The notes beneath the pieces are model-generated. The model did no database searches. It saw only the letters and a program-made list of their open reading frames with translations, and was not told where the DNA came from. A stretch of DNA of 64,000 bases. Origin: Eledone cirrhosa (taxonomy: Eukaryota). Numbering within the stretch: the stretch's first letter is position 1; each line of letters opens with the position of its first letter. Where the stretch lies: contig OZ024755.1 in NCBI GenBank assembly GCA_964016885.1, positions 42,594,001 through 42,658,000 of the forward strand, given 5' to 3'. The position numbers and the translations under genes are program-made. Below are positions 4,511-59,449 of this stretch, in pieces.

Positions 4511-4512
4511 TA

Positions 4513-4934: not shown

Positions 4935-5117
4935 TTCCACTGTAAAGTGGACGTGTAGGTGCCACGCCAAAAAAGCACCCAGCACTCACTGTAAATGAGG
5001 TTGGTGTTAGGAAGGGCATCCAGCTGTAGAAATTTAGCCAGAATCAGTTCCCGTCCCACCCTTGCAAGCAGGGAAAAAAAAGCGGATGTAAAATGAAATG
5101 ATGATGATGATGATGAT
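4935..5117 (+). mobile_element. RTE 3'-end fragment with (GAT)n tail
   Basis: GGTTGGTGTTAGGAAGGGCATCCAGC shared with 4355-4380, 5884-5909(-) and 10696-10721. Confidence 0.75.
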
Positions 5118-17180: not shown

Positions 17181-17184
17181 ATAC

Positions 17185-22181: not shown

Positions 22182-25181
22182 TGTTGAAAAAGTTGTGGGT
22201 ATGGTGTGGCGTGCGGTGGCCGGAAGCGGGGGAGTGCTCGACCGGAAGGGTGCTTGGCCGGAATGATGCTCGACCGGAAGGACGCAAGTTTCGGCAGCTC
22301 CCGGTGTTAATGAGTTGGACGCACGTGGAAGAGGAGAAACCAGCAGTGGGATTTAGCGGCGCCTATGAAAAGCGGTAAGTGAGAGAGCTTTTTCTAACCA
22401 CAAGCTATATCGGCACTGGAAACAGATCTGATTGAAAAAAAAAAGCTACTGGAAAAACAGAGAGGAGTCTGTTGTTTTTCTTATCACGTACCGCAAGACA
22501 AATTAGGATGGCGACAAGACTACGAACAAGCGAAGCGATCAGGGCATTTACCGGTGAAGGTGATGTCGCTTGGCTGCGAATAGTCCGGCTGGTCGCAAGC
22601 TTACAGAAGATAGATGTGGCTGGCCTCATGACACTGTACCTCGAGGGGGACGCGTTGGTACTCTTCCTTGAGTTGGATGAACACAGCCAAAGAGATGCGC
22701 AAAAGATTGAGAGGCGCATGATGGAAGCGTTCGCAGAGGGACCGTTAGCCGCTTTTGCTAAGCTGGCAAGAATTAGATGGAACGGCGAACGCGTTGACAT
22801 TTTCGCAGCGGAAATACGGCGATTGGCCATGTTGGCTGGATATCAGGTGGAATGCGAACACAGGGTGCGGTTGGCGTTCATAAATGGATTTCCAGATGAC
22901 ATAGCGGTGAAACTGCAGCAAGTCCCGGGTTACAAAGAAATGGAAATGCGTTCACTGGTGGAACAAGCCCGGATCATAGCAGAAGATGCAAAGAAGAGTG
23001 TAGCGGCGATAGCAACTACAGAGGCTCAAGACAGCTGGCAGCGAAATGGTGAAAGGGAGGCAACCACGGCACGCGGTCGCCCGCAAACGTTTAGAGGTCG
23101 CTGTTTTAGGTGCCAGGGCCAGCACATGGCGAGAGACTGTAGAGAGTCAAGGCCGGAAATAATATGCTACCGGTGTAAGTGACCAGGCCACATCGCTACT
23201 AACTGCGACCAGGGAAACGATCCAAGGGGAACTACTGCGCCGGTAGTTGCCCCTTACGAGTAGAGGCTCTGCCCGTGGTAGAAGTCTTCGTGAGGGGAAA
23301 GCCACAGCGAGCCCTCGTGGACACGGGCTGTACGACGACACTGGTGACCGCGGGGGTGGCACAGAGGTGGAGAGGGAAGAGCAGCGTAAGGGCAGTCGAC
23401 GGCAGGAAAATTGAATGCCGAGGTCGCAGCGAGGTGGAAATAGCGGTACGGGGAAGGAAAATAAGGCTTTCTGCCATCGTAGTTGACAACGTGGTGGATG
23501 GGATTGGCGTGGTTATGGGCATGGACGCAATTGGCCGTCTAGGAGGCGTCACAGTGAACAACGTCGGTGTGTCGTTTGGCGCCGCTGCATCGGTATGCGC
23601 TGGAGAACCAGAAGGCGACAGGAGAACCAGAAGGCCCACGAGGAGAAATACCCCGCTTACACTGTGCAGGACAAAGACTTCAAGGCCGTGTTCGATGGGT
23701 TGTTGAGTGGTACTGGAAGGGAGAACCACTAACACTGAAGACCAAAGTGGGCTGCTATCAACACACATTGAAGGGAAACATTAGGAGCGAGAGGTAGGGA
23801 GATGGATTGAGGAGGGTATACTGCTTCCCTGGAAAGAGGAGGTGAAGTGCGGAGTATTGCCGTTAATGGCGGTGGCGCAACCCACGAAGAACAAGGTGAG
23901 GCCGGTGCTTGACTTTCGTGAGCTGAACGAGTACGTGTCATGCCACACGGGTGGCGAGGTCACGGATGTCTGTGGGGAAACCCTGCGTGAGTGGAGACGC
24001 ATGACGGGGGGGGGGGGGTTCAGCAATCGTAGATCTAAAGTCGGCATACTTGCAATTGCATATATATGAGAAGCTCTGGCAGTATCAGCTGGTCAAGTAT
24101 AAGGGCTGGACATATTACCTGACCAGGCTCGGTTTCGGGCTGAGCTCCGCACCGAAGATCATGACGGTGGTCCTCAAGACCATTCTGGGAAAGGCCGACA
24201 AGATGAAGAGGGCCACTAACTCCTACATTGACGACATCCTAGTGGACGAGTCTGTAGTGTCGGCGGCGGAGGTCACGAGCCATTTACAGGGGTATGGACT
24301 GGCTGTGAAGCGTTGGAGGGAGGAGCCGCGCTGGGACTTAGGCTACGGCGAGACAGGACGGGCGTCTTGGTATTCCAGAGGGGAAATGAAGTTCCAGAAC
24401 TGGGCCCAAGTAAGAGTAGGCGGGAGCTTTTCTCGGTGTGTGGAAAGTTGGTGGGTCACTACCCAATTGCTGGGTGGCTCCGGACGGCATGAAGCTATGT
24501 CAAGAGACGAGTGGGAGAGAGGACGGTGGCCATGATGCAGGAGATCGTGGGGAGGGTGAAGGCCGACGACCCAGTGCGGGGACGCTGGTATGTTCCCAAA
24601 CCGCAGAGCGGAAACGTGTGGTGCGATGCCAGCAGCATAGCGCTGGGTGTCATGTTGGAGATAGGAGGTGTTGAGGTCGAGGATCCAGTCTGGCTTAGAG
24701 AGAAGGACGACTGCAGCCACATCAATGTGGCCGAACTGGACGCAGTGTTGAGAGGGGTGAACCTCGCCCTGAGGTGGGGACTGCACACCATCGAGATACG
24801 CACCGACTCGGCTACTGTACTCGGATGGGTGAGATCAGTGCTCACCAGTGAGAAGAGAGGGGCGGCGGAGATGCTGATAAAGCGCCACCTGGGAACTTTA
24901 GGAAAGCTGGCCACCGAGTTCGACCTGAGGCTGAGCGTAGTTTTCGTGCCCTCAGAGAAAAATAGGGCGAACGTCTTAACTAGGGTGAAGAAAGCCTGGA
25001 TGGAAGCGCCGGAGGAGGTAGAAGATGAGATAGCTGCCGTGTCGGCTGACCAAGTCGGATCTGAAAGGGTTGCATGACATGCACCACATAGGAGTGGATA
25101 GGAGCCTGTTCCTAGCCAGGAATCGACTCGGACATTAACAAACACAGTGTTCAAAGGGTGGTTAGACGCTGCGTCCGATGT
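22182..25181 (+). mobile_element. Decayed Ty3/gypsy LTR retrotransposon truncated in the integrase
   Basis: Gag from ATG 22508 with CFRC..H..C and CYRC..GH..C knuckles, protease LVDTGC, RT YIDD, RNase H WCDAS/AELDA/TDS, integrase HH..CVRC; LTR limits uncertain. Confidence 0.9.
23212..23253 (+). promoter_or_regulatory. gag-pol -1 frameshift signal
   Basis: G GGA AAC in gag frame, 7-nt spacer, hairpin GGGGAACTAC/GTAGTTGCCCC; protease ORF lies in the -1 frame. Confidence 0.75.
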
Positions 25182-27740
25182 CTTGTTGGTGGTCCTGTTG
25201 TCAGGTCGTCGACTGTCTTGTGGTCTTTGCGGAGCCCATACAAGGGTGGTATGCCATTGTTAGACGCCTGGAAGTTGTTGGCAGTGCGTCTGCTTGGCTT
25301 TAGGATGTCGGTCCACATCATCATGTGAGCGTTGAGGATTTTCTCTCTCCCATCATGTATTTGCTGTGCAATTTCGCTCGTGTTGGTGATGTGGGGTTGC
25401 ATAGCCTTGATGTAGTTCGGCATGCTATCTATTGACATCCTACCAGACTTATCCATGGGTAGACATAGTACCTCTCCATCCCTTGTGCGCTGCTTGAGGC
25501 TAACCAAGCCTTCTACAGGTTTCCTCCCAAGTTGTTGGGCCTCTGGTCTGCTCTGTCTCTTAGTATACCGGTCTACTATTTGTCTAATCTTATTTCTAGC
25601 TATGGTGAACTGTGCCTCTGTCTCGTCATCTATTTGTTGTGGTATGCAAACTCTTTTATTAAAGGGTAACCTCGTAGGATAGATATTACCCATCTTATAT
25701 GTTTTGTCAGCTGGGTTTAAGAATAGTTTCTCTAAGGGGTTGTCATTACATCTATCATCGACACAGACGAACTGGGCCTCCTACTTAGACTTACCTACGA
25801 CACTGACTACCTAGACAGCCATGACCTTAGACGTTTCTGCCCCAGTAGACCCATAAGAGGTAGACCCCCCACCATAACCTCAATGGCTAAAAAGACTCCC
25901 ATGGGAAGGTGGATTGGATGGACCAAAGCTATACAGACCCCCCAAAACAATGATCAGGTAGAAAAATGGTCGCACATGCAATAGGGGCTAGTATCAAAAC
26001 TACCCTAAAGGGCCACATATTCAAGTTCAACGAGAAGATCTACACCCAAAATGAGGGAGCAGCCATTGGCGTCAGCATAGCTGGTGACATTGCCAACCTT
26101 TTTATGATATGGTGGGAAAGGATACTTAAAGATCTCCTTAATGAGAGCTCCATTAACCTCATCATGTACTCTCGTTACGTAGACGATATCAATATAGTTA
26201 GAAGAATATCCCCACAAGAGAGCACTAACAAGTTGGATTTAGAACGTAGTACAATGGAAAGCATCCAGCAGATAGCTAATTCCATACACCAGAGTATAAC
26301 TGTAACTATCGACTACCCTTCCAAACACCCTAACAATAGACTACCTGTATTAGACACGGAACTCTGGATTAACACTATAGACGAGAGAGCCGAAATTCTC
26401 CACTCACACTATGCTAAACCCATGGCCTCCAAATACCTGATACTCAAAAACTCAACAATGTCCAGTAGTGGTAAGTTTAATATTCTGATCGCAGACTTGG
26501 TACGAGTGATGAAGAATGTGTCAGAGTATACGAAGGAGCCACGGAGAAGTATAAGACCCTCATAGAACTGGACATTAAAATGAATTTGCCCATTATACAG
26601 GAGCAAATCATGGAATAGATTAGATAGGGCTAGACATAAGATAGGGAAAGCCACCTCATGGTACGACAACCAGAGATACCAGAGTGTCATGTTTGTGGAC
26701 GCTACCCCTGGAGGGAAATTAGCTAACCAGTGTAGAAAGGCCCTGAGAAAGACCCACTTAAAAATAAAGGTGGTAGAAAAGCCAGGAACCACCATAAAAT
26801 CCCTGATCAGCAAAACCTACCCTTTTAAGAAAACCCACTGTACCAATAGGAAATGTATCATATGTAAGGTGAACCCCCGGATAAACTGTAAAACTAGAAA
26901 CGTAGTCTATAGCATAAGATGTACAGAGGGTACTTGCAGAAACATGACAACAACATACATAGGCGAGACAGCTTGTAGCATAGGTGAAAGGATAGACCAA
27001 CACTGGGGGGAACTAAAAGGACGAAAAAACGGTTCAGTACTATATGAACATGCCAGACAACAACACAACGGTAACATAGACAACACAGAACTTAGAATAA
27101 TATCTAAACATAGAAATGACCCAACAGATAGGCAAATCAGAGAGGCCAGTGAAATAGAACTTAGAAGGCCAAGGCTAAACAGAAAGAATGAATGGAATAA
27201 CAACAACACCCAAACAAACAACACTGACCTAAGAGAAGTAAATAAATAGATAAATAAATAAATAAATACATACACAAGCACAATAACAACAAACACATAT
27301 AAACACACACTAGTAAAGATAGAATACATTAACCAATACACAGTCACCCAATCACGAACACACATATCAAACAAAACACTATACACAGACGCAAACGCAT
27401 GCGCAAAGAAGACAAAATAAAATAAACAAATAAATAAATATATAAACAGACTAAATAAAGATGGCGTAGAAAATACAATGCCACGGGAGGAAACAATAGC
27501 ACCACTGACGATGTTGCAGATGTGCAACGAAAGAACTTTGATAAACTATGTATATGTGTTTGTGTCTATATTGTATCTGTATTATTTTTGACCGTTGGTC
27601 AGTCAATAGCAACATTGAGGACAGAATAAATTAGATTACCGATATAAAAGACACAGAAGCGAAAACCAACAAAACAGTGAGTGTGTTCTGTTATTAATTC
27701 TGGCAATATTACACAAATATGACCCTCCCCAAGTATAACT
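25182..27740 (+). mobile_element. Decayed Penelope-like element (Nematis-like, tentative) with inverted 5' part
   Basis: 25182-25790(-) PPLYGLRKDHK..GPPTR; + strand EGAAIG, SRYVDDI, LPVLD, CTNRKCIIC, VVYSIRC..YIGET, LNRKNEW. Confidence 0.85.
27501..27542 (+). ncRNA. Degenerate minimal hammerhead in PLE 3' UTR
   Basis: CTGACGA-t-gttgca(gatg)tgcaac-GAAA-gaac-TT; 6-bp stem II, weak stem I. Confidence 0.6.
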
Positions 27741-27891
27741 ATATATATATATACATAGTATGCTAGGGAAAGGATCAGGGGTGTATAACACTCCACTTAT
27801 CCAGCAGGCAGTATGAGGTTAGCTCAATGTCTGAGGACAGAGCCGTAATATAATAAATAAATAACAAAGAACGCTTATAGCATATGCATAT

Positions 27892-27949
27892 CTTTACTTG
27901 CTAACATTGTTTCATCCGCACTATAAGTGGGACTCATCAGAGCATAAAG
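27892..27949 (-). ncRNA. Hammerhead ribozyme, copy 1
   Basis: Exact reverse complement of 34391-34448. Confidence 0.85.
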
Positions 27950-28519
27950 GTTAATTACATACCATACAAGCAATAACAAATCCAAGACATTGAAGAATGA
28001 AAGGTAATAATAGACGATAGAGGATAAGAATAAAAATAAAAATAAAAGTAAAAATAAAAATAAAAATAAGGGGTGCTATCAGTCACAGTTGGGCGGTGTG
28101 CTGTCAACATATAGTTACATACAAGCATACACATGGATAAGAGAACAGACAAGAGTAGACACATGGATAAGAGAACAGACAAGAGTAGATAAGATAATGG
28201 GATTAGGTAAGAGTAGGTAAAAAATAGGTAAAAAATAGGTAAAAAACAGACTTATAATATATATAAAAAGAAATACAAAGAAATACATAACAAACTTACA
28301 TATAAAATATAAAATATAGGGTAAGGAATGAGATAAAATAATATAAAATTAAAAATTAAAAATTATATACATAGAACATAATATAGTATAATCGTAAAAT
28401 AAGATAAAATAAGGTAAACTAAAATCAAATAACATAGACTAAATTAAAATAATATAATATAAGATATAATTAAAATTAAATGTATAATTATATGTATAAT
28501 TAAATGTAATTAAATGTAA

Positions 28520-28567
<48 letters not shown>

Positions 28568-28636
28568 AAATTAAATAAATAAATAAAATTAAAATTTAAA
28601 TTTTAAAATTTTAAAATTAAAATCTAAATTTAAATA

Positions 28637-28679
<43 letters not shown>

Positions 28680-30189
28680 ATGGAGTCAAGTAAGTAAATA
28701 AATAAAATTAGATAACATGAAATGAAATAAAATAAAATGAAATAAAGTAAATTGAGATAAGATATATATTTTTTTAGAATATATCTCTTGAATATATCAG
28801 GGGCCCACGAAGGCACAAAATGTCACAGTTATGTGTATCACTTGACCAATTTTTAAAAATATATTTCTTGAAAACATCAGGGGCCCACGAAGGCACTAAG
28901 TGTCACAGTCACCAGTATCACTTGACCATTGCAAGGCAATGGAGGCGTCCCAGGTTGGGCAGTCTCGAAAGTTCACTCGAAAGTCATGGGTGTGCATTCA
29001 CACAGTTGAGCGGTGGGGTAATCACAAACCGGTTCACACACGGGCAGGAGTCAAATGGTCAGAGAGGTGCATCAAAGGAGGTAGAAGAATTCACATGCAT
29101 TAGCAAGCGAGGTGAGGTTAAAGCAAGCAGACACAGTTGTAGCGCATACAAAATATATATAAAAAGACAGAAGATATATAAAAAAATAGCTTCAAGAGCC
29201 ATTAAGTCACCGCATTGGGACATCACAAGATTGTACACATCAATATGTTCAGCACGTATATGCACGTATACACACCACATGCATATGCAGAGACGGTATA
29301 CATATATATATATATATATTTTTTTATATATACACACAGACACATATAACCACCTACACCCATACACATATAAATGTATACACGGGCACACACGCACACA
29401 CACACAGCGTAGGACACCCGGGTCAAAGCCGATATTAAATACGATATTAAATACGATATTAAACACCGAAATACCACATTAGACCAGACCCACCACCACA
29501 GGTAATATATTCAAAACAAATACATACGATGAGATGTATTAAAATAAAGTTGAAATCCTACGGAGATATTCATGTCTGCACGTGCCATTGACCGATTCGA
29601 GTGTACACAGACCGTTAGTAACTACGGAGGGCCATCGGGGCCAAAACGTTACTTTCGGGATCATAAAAACGACCGTCAATATAAGGAAGGCCGATCGTGC
29701 TAGAAAGACTACAACCCCGGGTAAGAGCTCCCAGAGGTCAGCCTGTAGATCTTGAACCACAGAATATGAGGGCAACACATATATGCGCCACGTATCCACT
29801 GCTTGCGGCAGGATGGCACGGGTCCGCCACAGTTACAGGCTAAATTTCTACTAGTGCAGCCTAAATCACAGTACACGCTTTACATAAATACATTACATCA
29901 CAACTCATGCGCATACAGAGGTACAGATCAACAAGATATACGTCAGGATAGGTCCACCAATGCACTAATGGTGGGTAGGCCAGCGTGGATGGGTTACATC
30001 CACTGTACCAAACAGGGGTGCTTATTAACATACACTCCCCTGCACACCCCAATATCAAGATCAATATCCTCCCACAGGCATACGTATACATTCACAGACT
30101 CGTATACATAGACGACCAACATTAGGAGACAGTTACACTCAGTCAGAGACAGTTACACAAGACAGCCCAACTGGAGGAATAAGGACGTG

Positions 30190-31089
30190 CTAGCTAACAG
30201 GTTTAAAGTAGAAGAAAGAGCTTAATATTCGGTGGGGGCAAGAGGAAAAAATTTCAGACTTTCTATTTAGTAGAGGGCATTTAGCAAATATAATAGAGTG
30301 GGATTCGGCAAGGCACAGGTTGCATACTCTACTATGAGGAGTATATGGATGGGATTTAGCAACCTGCCGCCAAGTAAGTGTGTAAGGTGTTCGTGCATTT
30401 TTTAAATTATGGATGTACGCTGCCAAGGAGGTGGAGTTCTTCAGTTTATTATGTCTAAAAGTGCATTGATGAGAGTTAAACCTGGTCTTAAAGGGGGTGG
30501 AAGTTGATCCTATATAGGTCATAGTGGACGCCGTAGTTACCACATCACACGCATAAACTATGTTTCTAACAAGGCAGAAACCATTCAGGGGGCAGCCCGA
30601 AGCCCTTCTACAGTTACAACCTCTGGTGATGCTATTCTCAGAAAGATCACCACCAGTGTTACTGCCCACTCTATCCACTACCGTGTTTTCCCCTAGGCTT
30701 AGGTTGTCCAGGCCTTCCTTTATTTTCTTATTATTAGTAATGGCCAGATGAGAGGCCAGATTTTGGGTTGTAGAATACGAAAGTTTAACAACATTCTTAT
30801 TGAGGATAGAGTGGTACCTATTACCAGGAGGGAAGTTCCGTTCTAGCACAGAGAAGAAGGCCCTAGGAATATTTGTAGCCACTTCAGAATTAAAAGGGGG
30901 GTTGAAGTATGTATTCAATCTTCTTCTATTCTTTTTATTCTTTCTATTTCCATCAGTATTATTAGCATTATTATTTCTACGGTTCCTATGCTCACCTAGT
31001 CTATGCGGGGAGCTGCGAGGCCCACCATTGCTATTACTTAGACTAATGGTGCCCTGCTGGTTCATTCCACCGGCATCTAGAAACCTCCC
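30190..31089 (-). pseudogene. 5'-truncated PLE ORF (linker + GIY-YIG) in inverted copy
   Basis: Nearly identical to the C-terminal ~300 aa of 34655-37147. Confidence 0.9.
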
Positions 31090-32190
31090 TTAGCTAGATC
31101 CGGCTTTAGGGACAAATTGTATTACACCCAGGGAAATAATGGTCCTAATAGTAGCTCTACCAGTGTTGTTATAACACATAATATGTCCATTGGTAATCGA
31201 GGTGTCGCGAATGGGAGGGTTCTAAATGCCGGTGGAATGAAACAGCAGGGCACCATTAGTCTAAGTAATAACAATAGAGGTGTCGTGAACGGGAGGTTTC
31301 TAGATGCCGGTGGAATGAACCAGCAGGGCACCATTAGTCTAAGTAATAGCAATGGTGGGCCTCGCAGCTCCCCGCATAGACTAGGTGAGCATAGGAACCG
31401 TAGAAATAATAATGCTAATAATACTGATGGAAATAGAAAGAATAAAAAGAATAGAAGAAGATTGAATACATACTTCAACCCCCCTTTTAATTCTGAAGTG
31501 GCTACAAATATTCCTAGGGCCTTCTTCTCTGTGCTAGAACGGAACTTCCCTCCTGGTAATAGGTACCACTCTATCCTCAATAAGAATGTTGTTAAACTTT
31601 CGTATTCTACAACCCAAAATCTGGCCTCTCATCTGGCCATTACTAATAATAAGAAAATAAAGGAAGGCCTGGACAACCTAAGCCTAGGGGAAAACATGGT
31701 AGTGGATAGAGTGGGCAGTAACACTGGTGGTGATCTTTCTGAGAATAGCATCACCAGAGGTTGTAACTGTAGAAGGGCTTCGGGCTGCCCCCTGAATGGT
31801 TTCTGCCTTGTTAGAAACATAGTTTATGCGTGTGATGTGGTAACTACGGCGTCCACTATGACCTATATAGGATCAACTTCCACCCCCTTTAAGACCAGGT
31901 TTAACTCTCATCAATGCACTTTTAGACATAATAAACTGAAGAACTCCACCTCCTTGGCAGCGTACGTCCATAATTTAAAAAATGCACGAACACCTTACAC
32001 ACTTACTTGGCGGCAGGTTGCTAAATCCCATCCATATACTCCTCATAGTAGAGTATGCAACCTGTGCCTTGCCGAATCCCACTCTATTATATTTGCTAAA
32101 TGCCCTCTACTAAATAGAAAGTCTGAAATTTTTTCCTCTTGCCCCCACCGAATATTAAGCTCTTTCTTCTACTTTAAACCTGTTAGCTAG
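31088..32190 (+). pseudogene. 5'-truncated PLE ORF (linker + GIY-YIG) in direct partial copy
   Basis: Nearly identical to 36045-37147. Confidence 0.9.
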
Positions 32191-34390
32191 CACGTCCTTA
32201 TTCCTCCAGTTGGGCTGTCTTGTGTAACTGTCTCTGACTGAGTGTAACTGTCTCCTAATGTTGGTCGTCTATGTATACGAGTCTGTGAATGTATACGTAT
32301 GCCTGTGGGAGGATATTGATCTTGATATTGGGGTGTGCAGGGGAGTGTATGTTAATAAGCACACCTGTTTGGTACAGTGGATGTAACCCATCCACGCTGG
32401 CCTACCCACCATTAGTGCATTGGTGGACCTATCCTGACGTATATCTTGTTGATCTGTACCTCTGTATGCGCATGAGTTGTGATGTAATGTATTTATGTAA
32501 AGCGTGTACTGTGATTTAGGCTGCACTAGTAGAAATTTAGCCTGTAACTGTGGCGGACCCGTGCCATCCTGCCGCAAGCAGTGGATACGTGGCGCATATA
32601 TGTGTTGCCCTCATATTCTGTGGTTCAAGATCTACAGGCTGACCTCTGGGAGCTCTTACCCGGGGTTGTAGTCTTTCTAGCACGATCGGCCTTCCTTATA
32701 TTGACGGTCGTTTTTATGATCCCGAAAGTAACGTTTTGGCCCCGATGGCCCTCCGTAGTTACTAACGGTCTGTGTACACTCGAATCGGTCAATGGCACGT
32801 GCAGACATGAATATCTCCGTAGGATTTCAACTTTATTTTAATACATCTCATCGTATGTATTTGTTTTGAATATATTACCTGTGGTGGTGGGTCTGGTCTA
32901 ATGTGGTATTTCGGTGTTTAATATCGTATTTAATATCGTATTTAATATCGGCTTTGACCCGGGTGTCCTACGCTGTGTGTGTGTGCGTGTGTGCCCGTGT
33001 ATACATTTATATGTGTATGGGTGTAGGTGGTTATATGTGTCTGTGTGTATATATAAAAAAATATATATATATATATATGTATACCGTCTCTGCATATGCA
33101 TGTGGTGTGTATACGTGCATATACGTGCTGAACATATTGATGTGTACAATCTTGTGATGTCCCAATGCGGTGACTTAATGGCTCTTGAAGCTATTTTTTT
33201 TATATATCTTCTGTCTTTTTATATATATTTTGTATGCGCTACAACTGTGTCTGCTTGCTTTAACCTCACCTCGCTTGCTAATGCATGTGAATTCTTCTAC
33301 CTCCTTTGATGCACCTCTCTGACCATTTGACTCCTGCCCTGTGTGAACCGGTTTGTGATTACCCCACCGCTCAACTGTGTGAATGCACACCCATGACTTT
33401 CGAGTGAACTTTCGAGACTGCCCAACCTGGGACGCCTCCATTGCCTTGCAATGGTCAAGTGATACTGGTGACTGTGACACTTAGTGCCTTCGTGGGCCCC
33501 TGGTGTTTTCAAGAAATATATTTTAAAAAATTGGTCAAGTGATACACATAACTGTGACATTTAGTGCCTTCGTGGGCCCCTGATATATTCAAGAGATATA
33601 TTCTAAAAAAATATATATCTTATCTCAATTTACTTTATTTCATTTTATTTTATTTCATTTCATGTTATCTAATTTTATTTATTTACTTACTTGACTCCAT
33701 TTATTTATTTATTTATTTATTTATATTTAAATTTAGATTTTAATTTTAAAATTTTAAAATTTAAATTTAAATTTTATTTATTTATTTAATTTTTATTTAT
33801 TTATTTATTTATTTATTTAATTACATTTAATTACATTTAATTATACATATAATTATACATTTAATTTTAATTATATCTTATATTATATTATTTTAATTTA
33901 GTCTATGTTATTTGATTTTAGTTTACCTTATTTTATCTTATTTTACGATTATACTATATTATGTTCTATGTATATAATTTTTAATTTTTAATTTTATATT
34001 ATTTTATCTCATTCCTTACCCTATATTTTATATTTTATATGTAAGTTTGTTATGTATTTCTTTGTATTTCTTTTTATATATATTATAAGTCTGTTTTTTA
34101 CCTATTTTTTACCTATTTTTTACCTACTCTTACCTAATCCCATTATCTTATCTACTCTTGTCTGTTCTCTTATCCATGTGTCTACTCTTGTCTGTTCTCT
34201 TATCCATGTGTATGCTTGTATGTAACTATATGTTGACAGCACACCGCCCAACTGTGACTGATAGCACCCCTTATTTTTATTTTTATTTTTACTTTTATTT
34301 TTATTTTTATTCTTATCCTCTATCGTCTATTATTACCTTTCATTCTTCAATGTCTTGGATTTGTTATTGCTTGTATGGTATGTAATTAAC

Positions 34391-34448
34391 CTTTATGCTC
34401 TGATGAGTCCCACTTATAGTGCGGATGAAACAATGTTAGCAAGTAAAG
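34391..34448 (+). ncRNA. Hammerhead ribozyme, copy 2 (about 220 nt upstream of the ORF)
   Basis: ctttatgct-CTGATGA-gtcc cact(tat)agtg c ggat-GAAA-c(aat)g-TT-agca(ag)taaag; predicted cut after 34437. Confidence 0.85.
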
Positions 34449-34654
34449 ATATGCATATGCTATAAGCGTTCTTTGTTATTTATTTATTATATTACGGCTC
34501 TGTCCTCAGACATTGAGCTAACCTCATACTGCCTGCTGGATAACTGGAGTGTTATACACCCCTGATCCTTTCCCTAGCATACTATACGGCTCCCACTGGT
34601 TGAGCTTAAACTTTGATATACGCGGATTTGCGTCCTTGTATATTATCAGGCAGT

Positions 34655-37147
34655 ATGCTAACAAAGACATACTTACCCATTTCCTTGAAGAATATTCCCC
34701 CCCCCCCCCCTAAAATCTCGTATGAGAAATCATTGATAACTAGCATAAACTCATTCGTAAAACGTGTTCGGTGGCGTGCGTTCCACTTTGATAGGAGGTA
34801 TGATAGCCCTGAGGAGAGGCGTAGTTTTAATAATTATGGATTTAAGACCTATAGGAGCCCCCCGCATAATAGCCTGTTGGATAACTTCGAAAGTGAGCTA
34901 TTATCCCTTGTTAGGAATATTAGATATAAAAAGTCTAGATGTACCAATAAATTTCAGAGTAAACTAAGTTCAATCGTTAGGGACTTTAGGGATAATAAAT
35001 CCATTCTGGTCCCCTCTGACAAAACTAAAAACTTATATAGTATGGATTATAAAACCTATCGAGGCTTCATTTATAATGAACTACATAGGAACTACAAAAA
35101 AACAACGCAGAGTAATTTAGATAATATTAATCTGGAGGGGTATAACATAGTGGTAAAATTAGGTCTGGATAAACACACTCAGCCTTATTACCCCAAGCAG
35201 CCTAGATTCACCCTCAAGGACCACAAGGAAGATTTTATTAGCAGACCCTCGGTTAGGCTTATCTGCCCCTCCAAGTCTGACCTGGGGATTATTAGTAAGG
35301 GAATCTTGGATAGCGTTATTCCCATGGTTAGAGAAAAAACTTTCCTTGAGCTTTGGGGTAACACTAGTGAGGTCATTACATGGTTCTCTACTGATTGTGG
35401 TCGTGACTCACTAAAATTCATCCAATTTGATATTGATGCTTATTATACATCTATATCTCCTATTATCCTCAATAAGGCCCTCATCCTAGCCATGCGGAGG
35501 GGGGCAATTACTAGGCCACAGATAGATATTGTTCTCGCTGCACGTAAAACCATTATCATGTTTGAGGATAATCTATGGACGAGAAAAAACACACCTGATA
35601 ATTTTGACATCACTATGGGGTCGAGTGACTCTGCTCAAGTCACCGACTTAGTTGGACTATACCTCCTCAATGAACTGCATAGTAACTTCCCTTTCCTTAG
35701 GGGTGGGTTGTACCGAGATGACGCCCTACTCTCCATAGATACTAGTAAGTATAATATAGAGCGCATTAGGAAAAAGCTGCATAGCTTTTTTAAAACTTTT
35801 AACCTATCCATTACAATGGATGTAAATGATAGAACTGTGAACTTCCTAGATGTTACACTGGACTTGGATAACCATACGTACACACCGTACCATAAGCCCA
35901 ATGAATTGCTGACTTACGTGAATACCTACTCCAACCACCCTAGGTCTGTCATCAGCGGTATACTGAAGGGCGTATCTAATAGAATAAGTTCACTCTCACA
36001 TAGTGAGGAGGCGTTTGACTCGCAGGCTGATTACTATAACGACGCCTTAGCTAGATCCGGCTTTAGGGACAAATTGTATTACACCCAGGGAAATAATGGT
36101 CCTAATAGTAGCTCTACCAGTGTTGTTATAACACATAATATGTCCATTGGTAATCGAGGTGTCGCGAATGGGAGGGTTCTAAATGCCGGTGGAATGAAAC
36201 AGCAGGGCACCATTAGTCTAAGTAATAACAATAGAGGTGTCGTGAACGGGAGGTTTCTAGATGCCGGTGGAATGAACCAGCAGGGCACCATTAGTCTAAG
36301 TAATAGCAATGGTGGGCCTCGCAGCTCCCCGCATAGACTAGGTGAGCATAGGAACCGTAGAAATAATAATGCTAATAATACTGATGGAAATAGAAAGAAT
36401 AAAAAGAATAAAAGAAGATTGAATACATACTTCAACCCCCCTTTTAATTCTGAAGTGGCTACAAATATTCCTAGGGCCTTCTTCTCTGTGCTAGAACGGA
36501 ACTTCCCTCCTGGTAATAGGTACCACTCTATCCTCAATAAGAATGTTGTTAAACTTTCGTATTCTACAACCCAAAATCTGGCCTCTCATCTGGCCATTAC
36601 TAATAATAAGAAAATAAAGGAAGGCCTGGACAACCTAAGCCTAGGGGAAAACACGGTAGTGGATAGAGTGGGCAGTAACACTGGTGGTGATCTTTCTGAG
36701 AATAGCATCACCAGAGGTTGTAACTGTAGAAGGGCTTCGGGCTGCCCCCTGAATGGTTTCTGCCTTGTTAGAAACATAGTTTATGCGTGTGATGTGGTAA
36801 CTACGGCGTCCACTATGACCTATATAGGATCAACTTCCACCCCCTTTAAGACCAGGTTTAACTCTCATCAATGCACTTTTAGACATAATAAACTGAAGAA
36901 CTCCACCTCCTTGGCAGCGTACGTCCATAATTTAAAAAATGCACGAACACCTTACACACTTACTTGGCGGCAGGTTGCTAAATCCCATCCATATACTCCT
37001 CATAGTAGAGTATGCAACCTGTGCCTTGCCGAATCCCACTCTATTATATTTGCTAAATGCCCTCTACTAAATAGAAAGTCTGAAATTTTTTCCTCTTGCC
37101 CCCACCGAATATTAAGCTCTTTCTTCTACTTTAAACCTGTTAGCTAG
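34655..37147 (+). CDS. Intact Penelope-like RT + C-terminal GIY-YIG endonuclease (830 aa from first ATG)
   Basis: SLKNIP, PSDKT, LKDHK, FDIDAYYTSI, MGSSDSA, LYRDD, VNFLDV, SNHP, YFNPPF, CNCx5Cx5C, IVY..YIGST..FKTRFNSH, CNLCLAE, LLNRKSE; no internal stop. Confidence 0.95.
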   Translation: MLTKTYLPISLKNIPPPPPKISYEKSLITSINSFVKRVRWRAFHFDRRYDSPEERRSFNNYGFKTYRSPPHNSLLDNFESELLSLVRNIRYKKSRCTNKFQSKLSSIVRDFRDNKSILVPSDKTKNLYSMDYKTYRGFIYNELHRNYKKTTQSNLDNINLEGYNIVVKLGLDKHTQPYYPKQPRFTLKDHKEDFISRPSVRLICPSKSDLGIISKGILDSVIPMVREKTFLELWGNTSEVITWFSTDCGRDSLKFIQFDIDAYYTSISPIILNKALILAMRRGAITRPQIDIVLAARKTIIMFEDNLWTRKNTPDNFDITMGSSDSAQVTDLVGLYLLNELHSNFPFLRGGLYRDDALLSIDTSKYNIERIRKKLHSFFKTFNLSITMDVNDRTVNFLDVTLDLDNHTYTPYHKPNELLTYVNTYSNHPRSVISGILKGVSNRISSLSHSEEAFDSQADYYNDALARSGFRDKLYYTQGNNGPNSSSTSVVITHNMSIGNRGVANGRVLNAGGMKQQGTISLSNNNRGVVNGRFLDAGGMNQQGTISLSNSNGGPRSSPHRLGEHRNRRNNNANNTDGNRKNKKNKRRLNTYFNPPFNSEVATNIPRAFFSVLERNFPPGNRYHSILNKNVVKLSYSTTQNLASHLAITNNKKIKEGLDNLSLGENTVVDRVGSNTGGDLSENSITRGCNCRRASGCPLNGFCLVRNIVYACDVVTTASTMTYIGSTSTPFKTRFNSHQCTFRHNKLKNSTSLAAYVHNLKNARTPYTLTWRQVAKSHPYTPHSRVCNLCLAESHSIIFAKCPLLNRKSEIFSSCPHRILSSFFYFKPVS

Positions 37148-39339
37148 CACGTCCTTATTCCTCCAGTTGGGCTGTCTTGTGTAACTGTCTCTGACTGAGT
37201 GTAACTGTCTCCTAATGTTGGTCGTCTATGTATACGAGTCTGTGAATGTATACGTATGCCTGTGGGAGGATATTGATCTTGATATTGGGGTGTGCAGGGG
37301 AGTGTATGTTAATAAGCACACCTGTTTGGTACAGTGGATGTAACCCATCCACGCTGGCCTACCCACCATTAGTGCATTGGTGGACCTATCCTGACGTATA
37401 TCTTGTTGATCTGTACCTCTGTATGCGCATGAGTTGTGATGTAATGTATTTATGTAAAGCGTGTACTGTGATTTAGGCTGCACTAGTAGAAATTTAGCCT
37501 GTAACTGTGGCGGACCCGTGCCATCCTGCCGCAAGCAGTGGATACGTGGCGCATATATGTGTTGCCCTCATATTCTGTGGTTCAAGATCTACAGGCTGAC
37601 CTCTGGGAGCTCTTACCCGGGGTTGTAGTCTTTCTAGCACGATCGGCCTTCCTTATATTGACGGTCGTTTTTATGATCCCGAAAGTAACGTTTTGGCCCC
37701 GATGGCCCTCCGTAGTTACTAACGGTCTGTGTACACTCGAATCGGTCAATGGCACGTGCAGACATGAATATCTCCGTAGGATTTCAACTTTATTTTAATA
37801 CATCTCATCGTATGTATTTGTTTTGAATATATTACCTGTGGTGGTGGGTCTGGTCTAATGTGGTATTTCGGTGTTTAATATCGTATTTAATATCGTATTT
37901 AATATCGGCTTTGACCCGGGTGTCCTACGCTGTGTGTGTGTGCGTGTGTGCCCGTGTATACATTTATATGTGTATGGGTGTAGGTGGTTATATGTGTCTG
38001 TGTGTATATATAAAAAAAAATATATATATATATATGTATACCGTCTCTGCATATGCATGTGGTGTGTATACGTGCATATACGTGCTGAACATATTGATGT
38101 GTACAATCTTGTGATGTCCCAATGCGGTGACTTAATGGCTCTTGAAGCTATTTTTTTTATATATCTTCTGTCTTTTTATATATATTTTGTATGCGCTACA
38201 ACTGTGTCTGCTTGCTTTAACCTCACCTCGCTTGCTAATGCATGTGAATTCTTCTACCTCCTTTGATGCACCTCTCTGACCATTTGACTCCTGCCCGTGT
38301 GTGAACCGGTTTGTGATTACCCCACCGCTCAACTGTGTGAATGCACACCCATGACTTTCGAGTGAACTTTCGAGACTGCCCAACCTGGGACGCCTCCATT
38401 GCCTTGCAATGGTCAAGTGATACTGGTGACTGTGACACTTAGTGCCTTCGTGGGCCCCTGATGTTTTCAAGAAATATATTTTAAAAAATTGGTCAAGTGA
38501 TACACATAACTGTGACATTTAGTGCCTTCGTGGGCCCCTGATATATTCAAGAGATATATTCTAAAAAAATATATATCTTATCTCAATTTACTTTATTTCA
38601 TTTTATTTTATTTCATTTCATGTTATCTAATTTTATTTATTTACTTACTTGACTCCATTTATTTATTTATTTATTTATTTATATTTAAATTTAGATTTTA
38701 ATTTTAAAATTTTAAAATTTAAATTTAAATTTTATTTATTTATTTAATTTTTATTTATTTATTTATTTATTTATTTAATTACATTTAATTACATTTAATT
38801 ATACATATAATTATACATTTAATTTTAATTATATCTTATATTATATTATTTTAATTTAGTCTGTTATTTGATTTTAGTTTACCTTATTTTATCTTATTTT
38901 ACGATTATACTATATTATGTTCTATGTATATAATTTTTAATTTTTAATTTTATATTATTTTATCTCATTCCTTACCCTATATTTTATATGTAAGTTTGTT
39001 ATGTATTTCTTTGTATTTCTTTTTATATATATTATAAGTCTGTTTTTTACCTATTTTTTACCTATTTTTTACCTACTCTTACCTAATCCCATTATCTTAT
39101 CTACTCTTGTCTGTTCTCTTATCCATGTGTCTACTCTTGCCTGTTCTCTTATCCATGTGTATGCTTGTATGTAACTATATGTTGACAGCACACCGCCCAA
39201 CTGTGACTGATAGCACCCCTTATTTTTATTTTTATTTTTACTTTTATTTTTATTTTTATTCTTATCCTCTATCGTCTATTATTACCTTTCATTCTTCAAT
39301 GTCTTGGATTTGTTATTGCTTGTATGGTATGTAATTAAC

Positions 39340-39397
39340 CTTTATGCTCTGATGAGTCCCACTTATAGTGCGGATGAAACAATGTTAGCAAGTAAAG
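39340..39397 (+). ncRNA. Hammerhead ribozyme, copy 3
   Basis: Identical to 34391-34448; 44 nt before the element end. Confidence 0.85.
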
Positions 39398-39496
39398 ATA
39401 TGCATATGCTATAAGCGTTCTTTGTTATTTATTTATTATATATACATATATATACATATATATATATCAAGATAAGCAGATATACATATATGTATA

Positions 39497-42400
39497 CTAG
39501 CTGAGCTACCCAGTGATACCCGGGTATTTTATGAAAGTTACAATATATTTGGCATACATTACAAAATATTTGACCATTCAAATATGATTGCTGAATTTTA
39601 ACCAAATTATTGCCAGTTCGTCAAAGTAAATCATCTAGATAAAAATATTGGTTTTTTCCAGTGGTGATTTTTTGAATACTGCTCCCCATTACAGTCAGCA
39701 TATATATAATGCTTTACTCATAGATGAATCATTAGGTATTTTGTCAGTGAAAAGGGCATGACCCAAAAAAATACATTTAGATTTTTCTTATTTATCCTTT
39801 ACTTTTTTTTTTTTTTTTTGTGCTCAATCTGAACCTCTGAAATAAAAAAAAAAACATAAATAAAATAAGAAAATAAATTTACCATTGGTTTATGATTGAA
39901 TGAAGCATTTACTTACTCATTTCTGTAATTCGGGGAAAGTGTATTTAAATTTGTACACTGTGGCTTTCACCAATCGTTGCCTCTATGGCAGTAGGATCTT
40001 GTTTGAGGGAGATTTTTTTTCTATTTCTATTAACTATACCAACAGTTATAGTGGCTCAAATGACATACATAGATACATACACACATATGTATGTGTGTAA
40101 GACAGTTGTTTGTGATTTGAAATGGATTTTGCTAATATTTCTAGTAGATCGAGTTATCACAGAGAACCAATCCTTTTTGCTTCATACATATATACATACC
40201 TAAGGTGGGATTTGAAGGAAATTTGGCTGCTATTTCTACCCAACAAAGTCCTCACTTATACTACTTTATATAGCAGAGGTACCCGGGAATGCCTGCATAT
40301 TCTTCCAAAGTAACACCATGCAGTAAATTTGCAGCTTCAGAATTCCATGCAAAGTACATGACTAAGGAATTAGGATCTGTGTGTATTGTCATTGAATGAG
40401 GAATTACGACATTGCTCATTCCAAAGCTTCTGGATAAACAACATTCTTGGTGCCACATTGAAGAGACAATCAGGGTTCCCAATCCTTGTTGTGCCAACAT
40501 AGAGTTGATCATGTGAAAAGACAGGATCTGCCAGATTCAACCCAGTGACTTTCTATGATTGCCCTTGAGATTTATTAATGGTCATGGCAAAACTGAGCCT
40601 GATTGGAAATTGAAGTCTTTGAAATTCAAATAGCAAATTAGTTGGCTTCAGAAGTATTCTGGGAATGAAACAATTGTCACCAGCAAATTTTCCTGACATG
40701 ATTGCAACTTCTAGAACGTTGGACATCATATTTTTGATGTCTTGTGCCATTACAAAGTTTTGGAGAATCCAGATTGCGAAGTAGCATAAGCGATGCTCCA
40801 AGCTTCAGTATCAGGTTGTGTGGAGGAATTCCTGCTTGTTCAAGGCTGTTCAAAAATTCAGTTGGATAGTTTACAACCTGGTCTTGAGAAGTGATTGTGT
40901 CAACTGATTTGTAGCATATTTTCCCTCCCGGTAACATCTCCAGCAGCCTTCTGTTGATTTCTTTCACAGCAACATTTTTAGGTGCTAAGATTGCTCGTTC
41001 ACAGAGCCATTTCGGATCACATTGCCTGGTCTGAATGTTTGTAAACACTCTGACAATCAGTTCTTGTTCTGTGTCAATGATATGGCCAAATGACAACTGA
41101 ATATGGTCATTGGAGTCCTTTTCAAGAAGTCCATTTCCCAATTTAAGTAGTTGGATGGCAAACTCACTGACATCTTCGTCACCAGTTAAGTGCACTCGCA
41201 TGTTGGTTGTAAGGCTCAGCAGCTGAAAGTGGGGCCAGAGATAGGATGTTTTCAGACAGGCATTGACCTAATCAGCTCAAATCCCTCGAAGAATTACAGG
41301 CAGAGTTTGTCTGAAATCACCAGCAAGAACCATTGTCACTCCTCCCATTATGCAACTATTTTCTCTCAGACCCCTTATCGTCCGGTCCAAAGCTTCAATT
41401 GCTCCTTTATGGCTCATAGTAGCTTCATCCCAAATTATCATCTTGCATGTTTGCAGAAGCTTGCCCTTGGGTGAGTTCTTCTTGATGTTGCAAAAAGATT
41501 GTTCATGCTGTGTGAGATCTATGGGCAGCTTAAACATGGAGTGCAGTTCTTCCCTCATCCAGAAGTGTTGCTGCAATGCCACTTGAAGCCACAGCAGGGG
41601 CAATGTGTTGCTTTTGGCGAACTTTTGCAAGCAGGAGGTTTATGAGGAATGACTTGCCTGTGCCAGCTGGAGCATCGATGAAGAAAAGTCCTCTCCTGTC
41701 ATTTTGAATATTTTTGATGATGTTGTGGTAGGAGTATTTCTGGTCATCCATCAATCGAGGTTCATTTTCATCCACAAACTTACGAAATGCTTGCATATCG
41801 TAGTTTGTCTCCTGAAAAATGTCTTGTGCTACCTCCATTTCTTCATCTGGCTCTGGCATCCCTCAGTTAGCTAATGTGCATTGCCTGAACTCGATGGGAC
41901 AGGTCACAGAGAGCTTGATTGTAAATCCTGGGGGGGTATATTCCATATACATATTGCCATGATGTCTTCAGGCTAGGTGTAGGTAGTTGTCCGACATATT
42001 GTTTTTGTACTCCTGCCAGAGTAGATGAGCTTCATCAATTCCACATGCTGTGAGTATAATAGCAAATAATTGTCTTCTTTGACTGGCTACTTGAATGATT
42101 GCTTCTTCTTCTAGGCACTTCTTCCAGTGTCCATTGTCATGCAGGAGTCCATGCTGTTTACATGCTTCTTGGTATGTTGCGCACTCCCTTCCTCTGAAGC
42201 ACCTAAGATCCTCAAATGACGTTGGCCCTCGAACAGTATGCAGAAGTAGCCATAAATAAAAACATTCTCTGTTGTTGGGATGGACATTGTAAACACGCCC
42301 AATAGCATCACTTGATTTGACTTCATGATCTTCCACTAAATGACTCTGCTTTCTTCGATTCCAGGTCTTGCAATTGGTCCAGGTGTAGTATGTTGGGACT

Positions 42401-42617
42401 TGAGCATATAGGAGGTATTGAGCAAATTCATCATTCTGGCTGAGTTTAAAGAAAGCAATTAGTGTAGTGTCATGTTATGCTTGTGCCAACTGATGAGCAG
42501 TGACCTCAGTGAAGTAAACTCTCTGTTCATTTTCCAGATGGACTGCGAGGTTGACCACTGTTGGGTGGCGTTGGTGGATATCAAATCCAAAGATTGGCCA
42601 GATAGCTTCATTGCATC
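39497..42617 (-). mobile_element. Decayed Helitron (Rep-helicase linker + Pif1 helicase) with 3' hairpin/CTAG ends
   Basis: VRGPTSFEDLR, DAPAGTGKSFL, IIWDEATM, GDFRQTLPV, RAILAPKN, LCNGTR, QFPIRLSFAMTINKSQGQS in shifted frames; ACCCGG..CTGGGT hairpin + CTAG at 39497-39525. Confidence 0.88.
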
Positions 42618-43547: not shown

Positions 43548-43612
43548 ATCAGTGTTTCTGTGTGTGTGTGTGTGTGTGTATGTATCAGTGTGTATGTGTG
43601 TGTGTGTGTATC
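43185..43612. repeat. Compound (TG)n / TATCAGTGTTTC repeat
   Basis: Seen directly. Confidence 0.9.
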
Positions 43613-43669
43613 ATAAAATAGAGTTTATAAAATCACCCTGAAATACGTTTCTTTCAAAAGCTCCCCCCC

Positions 43670-46600
43670 ATACACACACCAATACAGCCCCCCCCCCTCT
43701 ACACCAATACAGGCCCCCATACATCAATACAGGCCCCCCTCTACACCAATACAGGCCCCCATACATCAATACAGGCCCCCCTCTACACCAATACAAACCC
43801 CCTCTACACCAATACTGCCCCCCCTCTACACCAATACTGCCCCCCCTCTCACACACACGAATACAGGCCCCCCTCTACACCAATACAACCCCCCCCTCTA
43901 CACCAATACAGGCCCCCCTCTACACCAATACAGGCCCCCTCTACACCAATACAGGCCCCCCTCTACACCAATACAACCCCCCCCCTCTACACCAATACAG
44001 GCCCCCCTCTACACCAATACAGGCCCCCTCTACACCAATACAGGCCCCCTCTACACCAATACAGGCCCCCCTCTACACCAATACAAACCCCCTCTACACC
44101 AATACAGGCCCCCCTCTACACCAATACAAACCCCCTCTACACCAATACAGGCCCCCTCTACACCAATACAAACCCCCTCTACACCAATACAAACCCCCTC
44201 TACACCAATACAAACCCCCTCTACACCAATACAAACCCCCTCTACACCAATACAAACCCCCTCTACACCAATACAAACCCCCTCTACACCAATACAAACC
44301 CCCTCTACACCAATACAGGCCCCCTCTACACCAATACAGGCCCCCTCTACACCAATACAGGCCCCCTCTACACCAATACAGGCCCCCCTCTACACCAATA
44401 CAAACCCCCTCTACACCAATACAGGCCCCCCTCTACACCAATACAAACCCCCTCTACACCAATACAGGCCCCCCTCTACACCAATACAGGCCCCCCTCTA
44501 CACCAATACAAACCCCCTCTACACCAATACAGGCCCCCTCTACACCAATACAAACCCCCTCTACACCAATACAGGCCCCCCTCTACACCAATACAAACCC
44601 CCTCTACACCAATACAGGCCCCCCTCTACACCAATACAAACCCCCTCTACACCAATACAGGCCCCCCTCTACACCAATACAAACCCCCTCTACACCAATA
44701 CAAACCCCCTCTACACCAATACAAACCCCCTCTACACCAATACAAACCCCCTCTACACCAATACAGGCCCCCTCTACACCAATACAAACCCCCTCTACAC
44801 CAATACAGGCCCCCTCTACACCAATACAAACCCCCTCTACACCAATACAGGCCCCCCTCTACACCAATACAAACCCCCTCTACACCAATACAGGCCCCCC
44901 TCTACACCAATACAAACCCCCTCTACACCAATACAGGCCCCCCTCTACACCAATACAAACCCCCTCTACACCAATACAAACCCCCTCTACACCAATACAA
45001 ACCCCCTCTACACCAATACAAACCCCCTCTACACCAATACAGGCCCCCTCTACACCAATACAAACCCCCTCTACACCAATACAGGCCCCCTCTACACCAA
45101 TACAAACCCCCTCTACACCAATACAAACCCCCTCTACACCAATACAAACCCCCTCTACACCAATACAAACCCCCTCTACACCAATACAAACCCCCTCTAC
45201 ACCAATACAGGCCCCCTCTACACCAATACAAACCCCCTCTACACCAATACAAACCCCCTCTACACCAATACAAACCCCCTCTACACCAATACAAACCCCC
45301 TCTACACCAATACAGGCCCCCCTCTACACCAATACAAACCCCCTCTACACCAATACAAACCCCCTCTACACCAATACAAACCCCCTCTACACCAATACAA
45401 ACCCCCTCTACACCAATACAAACCCCCTCTACACCAATACAAACCCCCTCTACACCAATACAGGCCCCCTCTACACCAATACAAACCCCCTCTACACCAA
45501 TACAGGCCCCCTCTACACCAATACAGGCCCCCTCTACACCAATACAAACCCCCTCTACACCAATACAAACCCCCTCTACACCAATACAAACCCCCTCTAC
45601 ACCAATACAAACCCCCTCTACACCAATACAGGCCCCCTCTACACCAATACAAACCCCCTCTACACCAATACAAACCCCCTCTACACCAATACAAACCCCC
45701 TCTACACCAATACAGGCCCCCTCTACACCAATACAGGCCCCCTCTACACCAATACAGGCCCCCCTCTACACCAATACAAACCCCCTCTACACCAATACAA
45801 ACCCCCTCTACACCAATACAAACCCCCTCTACACCAATACAAACCCCCTCTACACCAATACAGGCCCCCTCTACACCAATACAAACCCCCTCTACACCAA
45901 TACAGGCCCCCTCTACACCAATACAGGCCCCCTCTACACCAATACAGGCCCCCTCTACACCAATACAGGCCCCCTCTACACCAATACAAACCCCCTCTAC
46001 ACCAATACAAACCCCCTCTACACCAATACAGGCCCCCTCTACACCAATACAAACCCCCTCTACACCAATACAGGCCCCCTCTACACCAATACAGGCCCCC
46101 TCTACACCAATACAGGCCCCCCTCTACACCAATACAAACCCCCTCTACACCAATACAGGCCCCCCTCTACACCAATACAAACCCCCTCTACACCAATACA
46201 GGCCCCCTCTACACCAATACAGGCCCCCTCTACACCAATACAGGCCCCCCTCTACACCAATACAAACCCCCTCTACACCAATACAGGCCCCCCTCTACAC
46301 CAATACAAACCCCCTCTACACCAATACAGGCCCCCCTCTACACCAATACAAACCCCCTCTACACCAATACAAACCCCCTCTACACCAATACAGGCCCCCT
46401 CTACACCAATACAGGCCCCCCTCTACACCAATACAAACCCCCTCTACACCAATACAGGCCCCCCTCTACACCAATACAAACCCCCTCTACACCAATACAA
46501 ACCCCCTCTACACCAATACAGGCCCCCTCTACACCAATACAGGCCCCCTCTACACCAATACAGGCCCCCCTCTACACCAATACAAACCCCCTCTACACCA

Positions 46601-59391: not shown

Positions 59392-59449
59392 TTCACCTGT
59401 CACCCCCCTCGCCTAACTATCCTGCCTTTTTTCTATATTTAAGATATTA

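What the first reader, a model, noticed from the sequence alone, without database searches (positions are those of the whole stretch)
27755..39441. Potentially active Penelope-like element with intact ORF and three ribozymes
An uninterrupted 830-aa ORF (YRDD, GIY-YIG), near-identical copies and intact HHRs 4949 nt apart. A read-through transcript could self-process to an exact unit-length RNA containing the ORF. The SLKNIP start, CxCx5Cx5C linker and TA flanks suggest the Hydra clade (from recollection; needs phylogeny).
Basis: partly seen in the sequence, partly recalled or inferred. Interest (0 to 1): 0.75.

Follow-up and report, generated by a model that had tools for sequence, protein, structure and literature searches.

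The report
Intact young Hydra-type Penelope jumping gene
This is an intact, recently spread copy of a known kind of jumping gene (Hydra-type Penelope element) whose copies end at two fixed points, each beside the same small RNA hairpin, which likely marks where its telomerase-related enzyme starts copying, possibly from a circular RNA.

Summary
27755-39445 is one insertion in (TA)n: an inverted truncated arm plus a 1.7-unit arm with an open 830-aa RT/GIY-YIG ORF. It has three identical hammerheads; two predicted cuts lie 4949 nt apart. All published Hydra-clade motifs are met; a tree with named references was not possible. The family is young (700 exact hammerhead cores, 15 of 30 top copies with open ORFs, RT dN/dS 0.07-0.09). 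Current activity and expression are untested.

Copies do not end at the ribozyme cut but 55 or 149 nt past it. Each of 38 two-armed insertions has one end of each kind, as do 11 of 11 in two sister families. Each end abuts a bulged hairpin, with compensatory changes across families. So a linear unit RNA cannot simply be the template. Half of the ORF-bearing arms (10 of 20) end at the outer site, which favours a ligated circle or rare long arrays.

The element type, the one-sided tail and the circle idea are published. This scan noted the twin hairpins and the pairing rule before, on other DNA. New here: an intact enzyme with its own signals, and a locus-specific test for the circle.

The parts
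27755..39445 (.). Whole two-armed insertion in a TA microsatellite; possible 12-bp target duplication (27746-27757 and 39437-39448, overlapping the element ends)
27755..31089 (-). Arm A: inverted 5'-truncated copy (EN part of ORF, 3' UTR, hammerhead, 94-nt tail); ends at outer site E2 (+148 from the cut)
27899..27944 (-). Hammerhead 1 (identical core), predicted cut after 27903
31088..34437 (+). Segment B (pseudo-LTR): 5'-truncated copy, joined head-to-head to arm A with 2-nt overlap
34396..34441 (+). Hammerhead 2, type I, 2-bp near-palindromic stem III, predicted cut after 34437 (GUU triplet)
34492..34492 (+). Inner end site E1 (+55): one of two places where family copies stop
34496..34519 (+). 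Bulged hairpin 1, directly 3' of E1; inner stem covaries across three families
34586..34586 (+). Outer end site E2 (+149); E1-E2 is the 94-nt tail
34588..34606 (+). Bulged hairpin 2, directly 3' of E2; present in this insertion only at the B/C junction
34655..37147 (+). ORF, 830 aa: RT (about 1-478), disordered N/G-rich insert (482-585), CxCx5C linker, GIY-YIG endonuclease (706-809)
37148..39386 (+). Long (2.2 kb) 3' untranslated region with AT-rich and short tandem repeats
39345..39390 (+). Hammerhead 3, predicted cut after 39386; copy C then ends at E1 (+55, about 39441)

Best explanation
This is one recent insertion of an autonomous Hydra-clade Penelope-like retrotransposon with an open RT/GIY-YIG reading frame, likely made when the enzyme cut a TA repeat on both strands and primed reverse transcription from both ends, at two hairpin-marked sites of an RNA that was likely longer than one unit or circular. 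Shown: anatomy, motifs, fold, copy number, two fixed ends, one of each per two-armed insertion, hairpins beside both ends, near-identity of arms. Inferred: staggered cut, short TA pairing of each target end with the RNA, the hairpins as binding/start signals (possibly one per subunit of a dimer), joining of the two cDNAs by microhomology. Least certain: the template. I favour a hammerhead-cut, re-ligated unit circle (about 45%) over uncut multi-unit transcripts (about 40%) or end-to-end jumps on a cut linear RNA (about 10%); all three give the same outer ends.
For: Hydra motifs RWR, DKT, CxCx5C, CxxC/CxH, no CCHH (vs PMC8557442 section 11); TERT-like and I-TevI-like folds. First 30 exact cores on contig C1: 15 end at E1, 14 at E2, 1 continues, none at the cut. 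690 of 700 cores read through the cut; 891 of 930 downstream words keep the upstream core, and the 3 exceptions checked are point changes or a junction 14 nt upstream. One E1 plus one E2 end in 33 of 33 parsed two-armed insertions and 5 more read separately; 8 of 8 and 3 of 3 in sister families with 68-69% RT identity, ends 2-7 nt before their own hairpins. Hairpin 1 inner stem changes on both sides at 2 free pairs; 0 of 500 shuffles reach the covariation score. In 10 of 12 insertions the two arms are closer to each other than to any other sampled copy. Interrupted TSD-like repeats in 11 of 33 insertions vs 37 of 516 mismatched pairs. ORF-bearing arms: 10 end at E2 and 10 at E1, while only 2 same-strand arrays with three or more hammerheads were seen and none among the 10 insertions re-fetched as closest relatives. 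RT dN/dS 0.07-0.09. Poseidon RT starts at two internal sites that bound the tail and is predicted to dimerise (PMC11167929).
Against: No biochemical test. The hammerhead fold (-4.5 kcal/mol) is above the MFE (-9.7), and metazoan PLE hammerheads cleave poorly (PMC4209133). In Poseidon, hammerhead mutants still insert in vitro, uncut RNA is the main substrate, no RNA-seq reads ended at the cut, and start sites did not differ between strands (PMC11167929). Hairpin 2 is weak alone (z -0.56), and the whole leader can fold in an alternative long-range form. Covariation rests on only 3 families, and my motif search fixed 6 of the 8 pairs. B and C share a private substitution and a short TTTA run that A lacks, and one insertion (L070) has 6 of 13 arm differences seen elsewhere: two RNAs or later gene conversion. 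Nearest-copy distances come from a sample of under 60 loci.
Confidence: 0.7

Rival explanations
1. Same element and same two start sites, but the template is an uncut read-through transcript of a long tandem array; the hammerhead is a passenger or only regulates RNA level.
For: Hammerhead dispensable for Poseidon in vitro (PMC11167929); arrays of three or more units exist (C1002, C4); seamless read-through of the cut site is expected.
Against: Such arrays are rare against two-junction loci, the C1002 array differs from the window copy by about 1.5%, and arrays would shorten each round without a way to regrow. Hammerhead cores and stems are kept with compensatory changes in three families.
Confidence: 0.4
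2. One reading: the ribozymes release a linear 4949-nt RNA that is both mRNA and direct template.
For: Two intact cores flank the ORF at exactly one unit.
Against: No ends at the cut. Both start sites would lie 55 and 149 nt from the RNA 5' end, so the ORF could be copied only after an end-to-end jump, and the joins are seamless in 690 of 700 cores.
Confidence: 0.1
3. The inverted/tandem layout arose after insertion by DNA-level duplication or is an assembly artefact, and the copy is an old dead insertion.
For: B and C share one private change; long near-identical repeats are hard to assemble; no long reads were available for this locus.
Against: Each copy has private differences; arms end at different fixed sites; the same layout recurs at other loci; contigs of four public runs (2 samples, 1 study) show loose TA ends at both sites.
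Confidence: 0.05

Closest known systems
Hydra clade of C-terminal EN+ Penelope-like elements (Craig et al. 2021, PMC8557442; includes Hydra-1_Obim from Octopus bimaculoides)
   Same: Single ORF with RT then GIY-YIG, RW[KR], DKT, CxCx5C linker, CxxC and CxH around E and N, no CCHH, type I hammerhead near the 3' end, (TA)n target; N-terminal KNIP segment as in the supplement sequences (by eye).
   Different: Unit 4.95 kb versus 'generally <3 kb'; 2.2-kb 3' UTR; about 100-aa disordered insert; tail 94 nt versus 30-40; a different family from Hydra-1_Obim (different hammerhead and N-terminus); abundant with many open ORFs.
Poseidon_Ac of Anolis (Frangieh et al. 2024, PMC11167929)
   Same: Two internal RT start sites bounding the tail, downstream of a hammerhead; AT-rich targets; both strands extended.
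   Different: Other PLE clade; start sites lie inside the ORF in one AC-rich stem-loop; no twin hairpin or one-end-of-each rule described in the parts read.
PLE hammerheads and circle model (Cervera and de la Pena 2014, PMC4209133); metazoan retrozymes (PMC7229834)
   Same: Type I hammerhead with minimal palindromic stem III; proposed cut-and-ligate circle as template for more-than-unit copies.
   Different: Circles were shown for small non-coding retrozymes; for coding PLEs the circle is only proposed in the parts read.
Adineta vaga Penelope elements (Arkhipova et al. 2013, PMC3846280)
   Same: Two direct plus one inverted pLTR, tail on one inverted end, 8-10-bp TSDs, N-rich in-frame inserts between RT and EN.
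   Different: Low copy number; inversion explained there by self-priming on an antisense template.

Membership tests
EN+ Penelope-like elements | Single ORF with telomerase-related RT | tested here: met
   AlphaFold model pLDDT 80.9; best Foldseek and VIA hits are telomerases; YRDD invariant in 26 homologues
EN+ Penelope-like elements | C-terminal GIY-YIG endonuclease with R, H, E, N residues | tested here: met
   I-TevI domain Z 9.9, rmsd 2.5, 89 of 92 aligned; weak HHalign match to a Pfam-positive GIY-YIG, probability 28%
EN+ Penelope-like elements | Partial tandem (pLTR), inverted truncated copy, one-sided tail | tested here: met
   PMC8557442 section 6
EN+ Penelope-like elements | Hammerhead in the pLTR | tested here: met
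   Core and three stems read directly, covarying in sister families; no Rfam hit; cleavage untested
Hydra clade | RWK motif, GxKF/Y not conserved, DKG changed to DKT | tested here: met
   RWR and SDKT in the window protein; DKT in 35 of 39 homologues
Hydra clade | CxCx5C linker; CCHH absent; CxxC and CxH beside E and N | tested here: met
   CNCRRASGC, CNLCLAE, CPH; no second-strand CxxC of the CCHH type in 39 of 39 homologues
Hydra clade | (TA)n insertion preference | tested here: met
   29 of 29 terminal ends abut AT-rich or TA runs
Hydra clade | Generally shorter than 3 kb (descriptive, not diagnostic) | tested here: not met
   Unit is 4949 nt
Hydra clade | Placement in RT phylogeny with named Hydra references | tested here: inconclusive
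   Quick tree holds no named Hydra sequence; the family sits among Hydra-motif homologues, in a 99% group with an Argonauta hians protein, far from two other PLE fragments of the window
Active transposon | Expression, polymorphic or identical copies | not testable with these tools
   Closest copies 99.4-99.6% identical; no informative junction coverage

The most novel reading that the evidence does not exclude
Hydra-type Penelope elements replicate through a 5-kb, protein-coding, ribozyme-made circular RNA on which two RT subunits dock on twin hairpins and each primes one strand of a staggered break, which explains pseudo-LTRs, the one-sided tail and the inverted arm in one mechanism.
Probability: 0.35. 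Interest if true: 0.8.

Novelty: new member of a known kind. Interest (0 to 1): 0.48.

Why it matters
How Penelope-like elements, the closest mobile relatives of telomerase, make their tandem and inverted insertions, and what their hammerheads are for, is open in the papers read. This family supplies an open-frame enzyme, its own RNA signals, hundreds of young copies with exact ends, and private alleles in this very locus that tell a circular RNA from read-through. No Hydra-clade protein was found to be characterised in my searches. As an element alone it is ordinary.

Tried and rejected
Rfam found no hammerhead. Pfam and PDB sequence searches gave nothing for the ORF. A single-sequence fold of the C-terminal part was unusable (pLDDT 31.9). 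No RNA holder listed. Laying contigs on the right junction gave no cover across the TA run, so the empty-site test was uninformative. The sigma-70 promoter scan is irrelevant for an animal genome. The whole-window repeat search was swamped by a 21-bp minisatellite. The careful tree did not finish; only the quick tree is used. Named Hydra reference proteins were seen only as cut text in a supplement and were not brought into a tree. Pile-up of 5' or 3' ends at the ribozyme cut: looked for, not found. Two insertions (L084, L090) had one E2 end and one damaged end and were left out of the pairing count. Look-ups of earlier notes by sequence and by nearby place returned nothing. Supplementary figures of PMC8557442 (S2, S7, S8) and the supplements of PMC11167929 were not seen and may bear on motif placement and on the tail/start-site claims.

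Full report
What is there. Self-alignment of 27000-41000 shows three copies of one element. Arm A (31089 to 27755, minus strand) is joined head to head, with a 2-nt overlap, to segment B (from 31088), which runs in tandem into copy C (to about 39441). B and C are 99.5% alike over 3410 nt; A is 98.2-98.5% alike, mostly through two 20-nt microsatellite indels. C holds an open ORF, 34655-37147, 830 aa. Three identical hammerhead cores have predicted cuts after 27903 (-), 34437 and 39386, the last two 4949 nt apart. Both outer ends abut TA runs, with a shared interrupted 12-mer that may be a target duplication.

Protein. Pfam finds nothing, but 983 homologues were returned; the best named full-domain one is from Argonauta hians, and earlier notes of this scan call the genome cephalopod, so the host is likely a cephalopod. 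A model from 26 sequences (pLDDT 80.9) matches telomerase RTs best, and residues 706-809 match the I-TevI GIY-YIG domain (Z 9.9). Residues 482-585 are a disordered N/G-rich insert that most homologues lack. Every Hydra-clade marker listed by Craig et al. (PMC8557442; passages, sections 6 and 11, supplement file 1 part 2 and finds read) is present. That supplement already lists an octopus Hydra family of 2507 bp with a different hammerhead. My tree (quick method, no named references) cannot serve as a formal placement.

Family and age. The genome has 700 exact copies of the 38-nt hammerhead core and 930 of the word just after the cut. Of the 30 best RT-region hits, 15 have an uninterrupted frame of 800 aa or more, the window copy included. 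The closest copies differ by 8-10 substitutions in 2.5 kb. dN/dS in the RT is 0.07-0.09 against three subfamilies, 0.14-0.25 in the C-terminal part, and 0.36-1.4 in the insert. Two sister families with 68-69% RT identity have 812 and 866 exact marker words. The family therefore spread recently under selection; present activity is not shown.

Where copies end. Of the first 30 exact cores on contig C1, 15 end at about +55 from the cut (40-55 as aligned, the spread due to small subfamily indels), 14 at +146 to +149, and 1 continues into an ORF. That search word spanned the cut, so I repeated it with a word stopping before the cut: 700 versus 690. Downstream, 891 of 930 words keep the core upstream; the three exceptions in the listed part of C1 are two point changes and one junction 14 nt upstream. 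Contigs of four public runs (2 samples, 1 study, kind not on record) show loose TA ends at 34484-34491 and 34585-34586. Ends are thus set by two sites, not by the ribozyme.

Pairing rule. In two-armed insertions one arm ends at E1 and the other at E2: 33 of 33 parsed, of 35 given; the two unparsed and three more, read, follow suit (38 of 38). Two with a damaged end were left out. Sister families: 8 of 8 and 3 of 3. A tail on one inverted end is described (PMC8557442 section 6; PMC3846280, passages), as 'often' or 'optional'. The arms of one insertion are closer to each other than to any other sampled copy in 10 of 12 cases. Interrupted TSD-like repeats occur in 11 of 33 insertions against 37 of 516 mismatched flank pairs.

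Twin hairpins. Directly 3' of both E1 and E2 lies the same motif, a 4-bp outer stem, a 2-nt bulge and an inner stem (34496-34519, z -2.16; 34588-34606, z -0.56). Both recur in the sister families, 2-7 nt behind their own end sites. The two unconstrained inner pairs of hairpin 1 change on both sides between families (97.9% paired, 0 of 500 shuffles, but only three independent families). I noted this and the pairing rule before looking at earlier notes; several of them report the same on other DNA. They are AI notes, not independent proof. Searches listed no paper whose parts I read describes twin hairpins or a strict rule.

Mechanism. Inferred: the endonuclease makes a staggered cut in (TA)n; each 3' end pairs with a few UA letters at E1 or E2; RT copies upstream through the hammerhead into the 3' UTR and ORF; the two cDNAs join at a short microhomology. 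Frangieh et al. (PMC11167929, parts 1-2 of 4) show for Poseidon two internal starts bounding the tail, extension of both strands and a predicted dimer, but also that the hammerhead is dispensable in vitro. If hairpin 2 is needed in cis, an arm that ends at E2 and holds the whole ORF needs a template with a complete junction 3' of a full unit. No ordinary locus offers that, because terminal ends stop before hairpin 2. Yet 10 of 20 ORF-bearing arms end at E2, and only two arrays of three or more hammerheads were seen. A cut-and-ligated unit circle, proposed by Cervera and de la Pena (PMC4209133, parts 1-2 of 4) and shown for small retrozymes (PMC7229834, passages; preprint 10.64898/2026.07.22.740005, part 1 of 5), solves this; long uncut arrays are the rival. 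Against a single circle: B and C share one private substitution and a short TTTA run that A lacks, and L070's arms differ at alleles seen elsewhere.

Verdict. A real, intact member of a described clade, larger than described members. The value lies in testability: an enzyme with its own signals and locus-specific alleles for a circle test. Interest 0.48; novelty: new member of a known kind.

Noticed in passing
window 19211-20564 (+) and 16792-17217 (-): Broken Penelope-like element of another clade (RT_1 and GIY-YIG Pfam hits, CCHH-type endonuclease) with an inverted partial copy.
   Followed up: partly
window 25151-27249: Further PLE-like remnants: a CxC/DKS piece on the minus strand and RT plus endonuclease pieces on the plus strand; clade label not tested.
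   Followed up: no
window 22436-25077: Broken LTR-retrotransposon-like frames (zinc knuckle, protease-like, RT-like, RNase H-like by eye; labels recalled).
   Followed up: no
window 3061-8560: Two LINE-like RT fragments in inverted orientation, 77% complementary.
   Followed up: no
window 40677-42474: PIF1-helicase remnant, probably a Helitron (Pfam).
   Followed up: no
window 43600-59460: About 16 kb of a 21-bp C-rich minisatellite giving long spurious ORFs.
   Followed up: no
L131-L135, upstream of the ORF: Sister family F2 has the U3-A8 hammerhead core variant reported for Schistosoma PLEs (PMC4209133), and a 107-nt tail.
   Followed up: partly
L094-L096 (G000:C1002) and L147-L148 (G000:C4): Tandem arrays of about 4.6 and at least 2.5 units of this family; units nearly identical; candidates for rolling-circle products or source loci.
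   Followed up: partly
L082:4987-5119; L086:1303-1369: Tiny arms that start in the 3' strand of hammerhead stem II; L082 is a 133-bp two-armed insertion that still has one end of each kind.
   Followed up: partly
window about 34698-34711: C run early in the ORF is a frameshift hot spot among copies (C10, C12, C13 in six loci; C14 in frame here).
   Followed up: yes
L137:171-900: 310-bp tandem repeats with a hammerhead core (retrozyme-like) near a sister-family copy.
   Followed up: no
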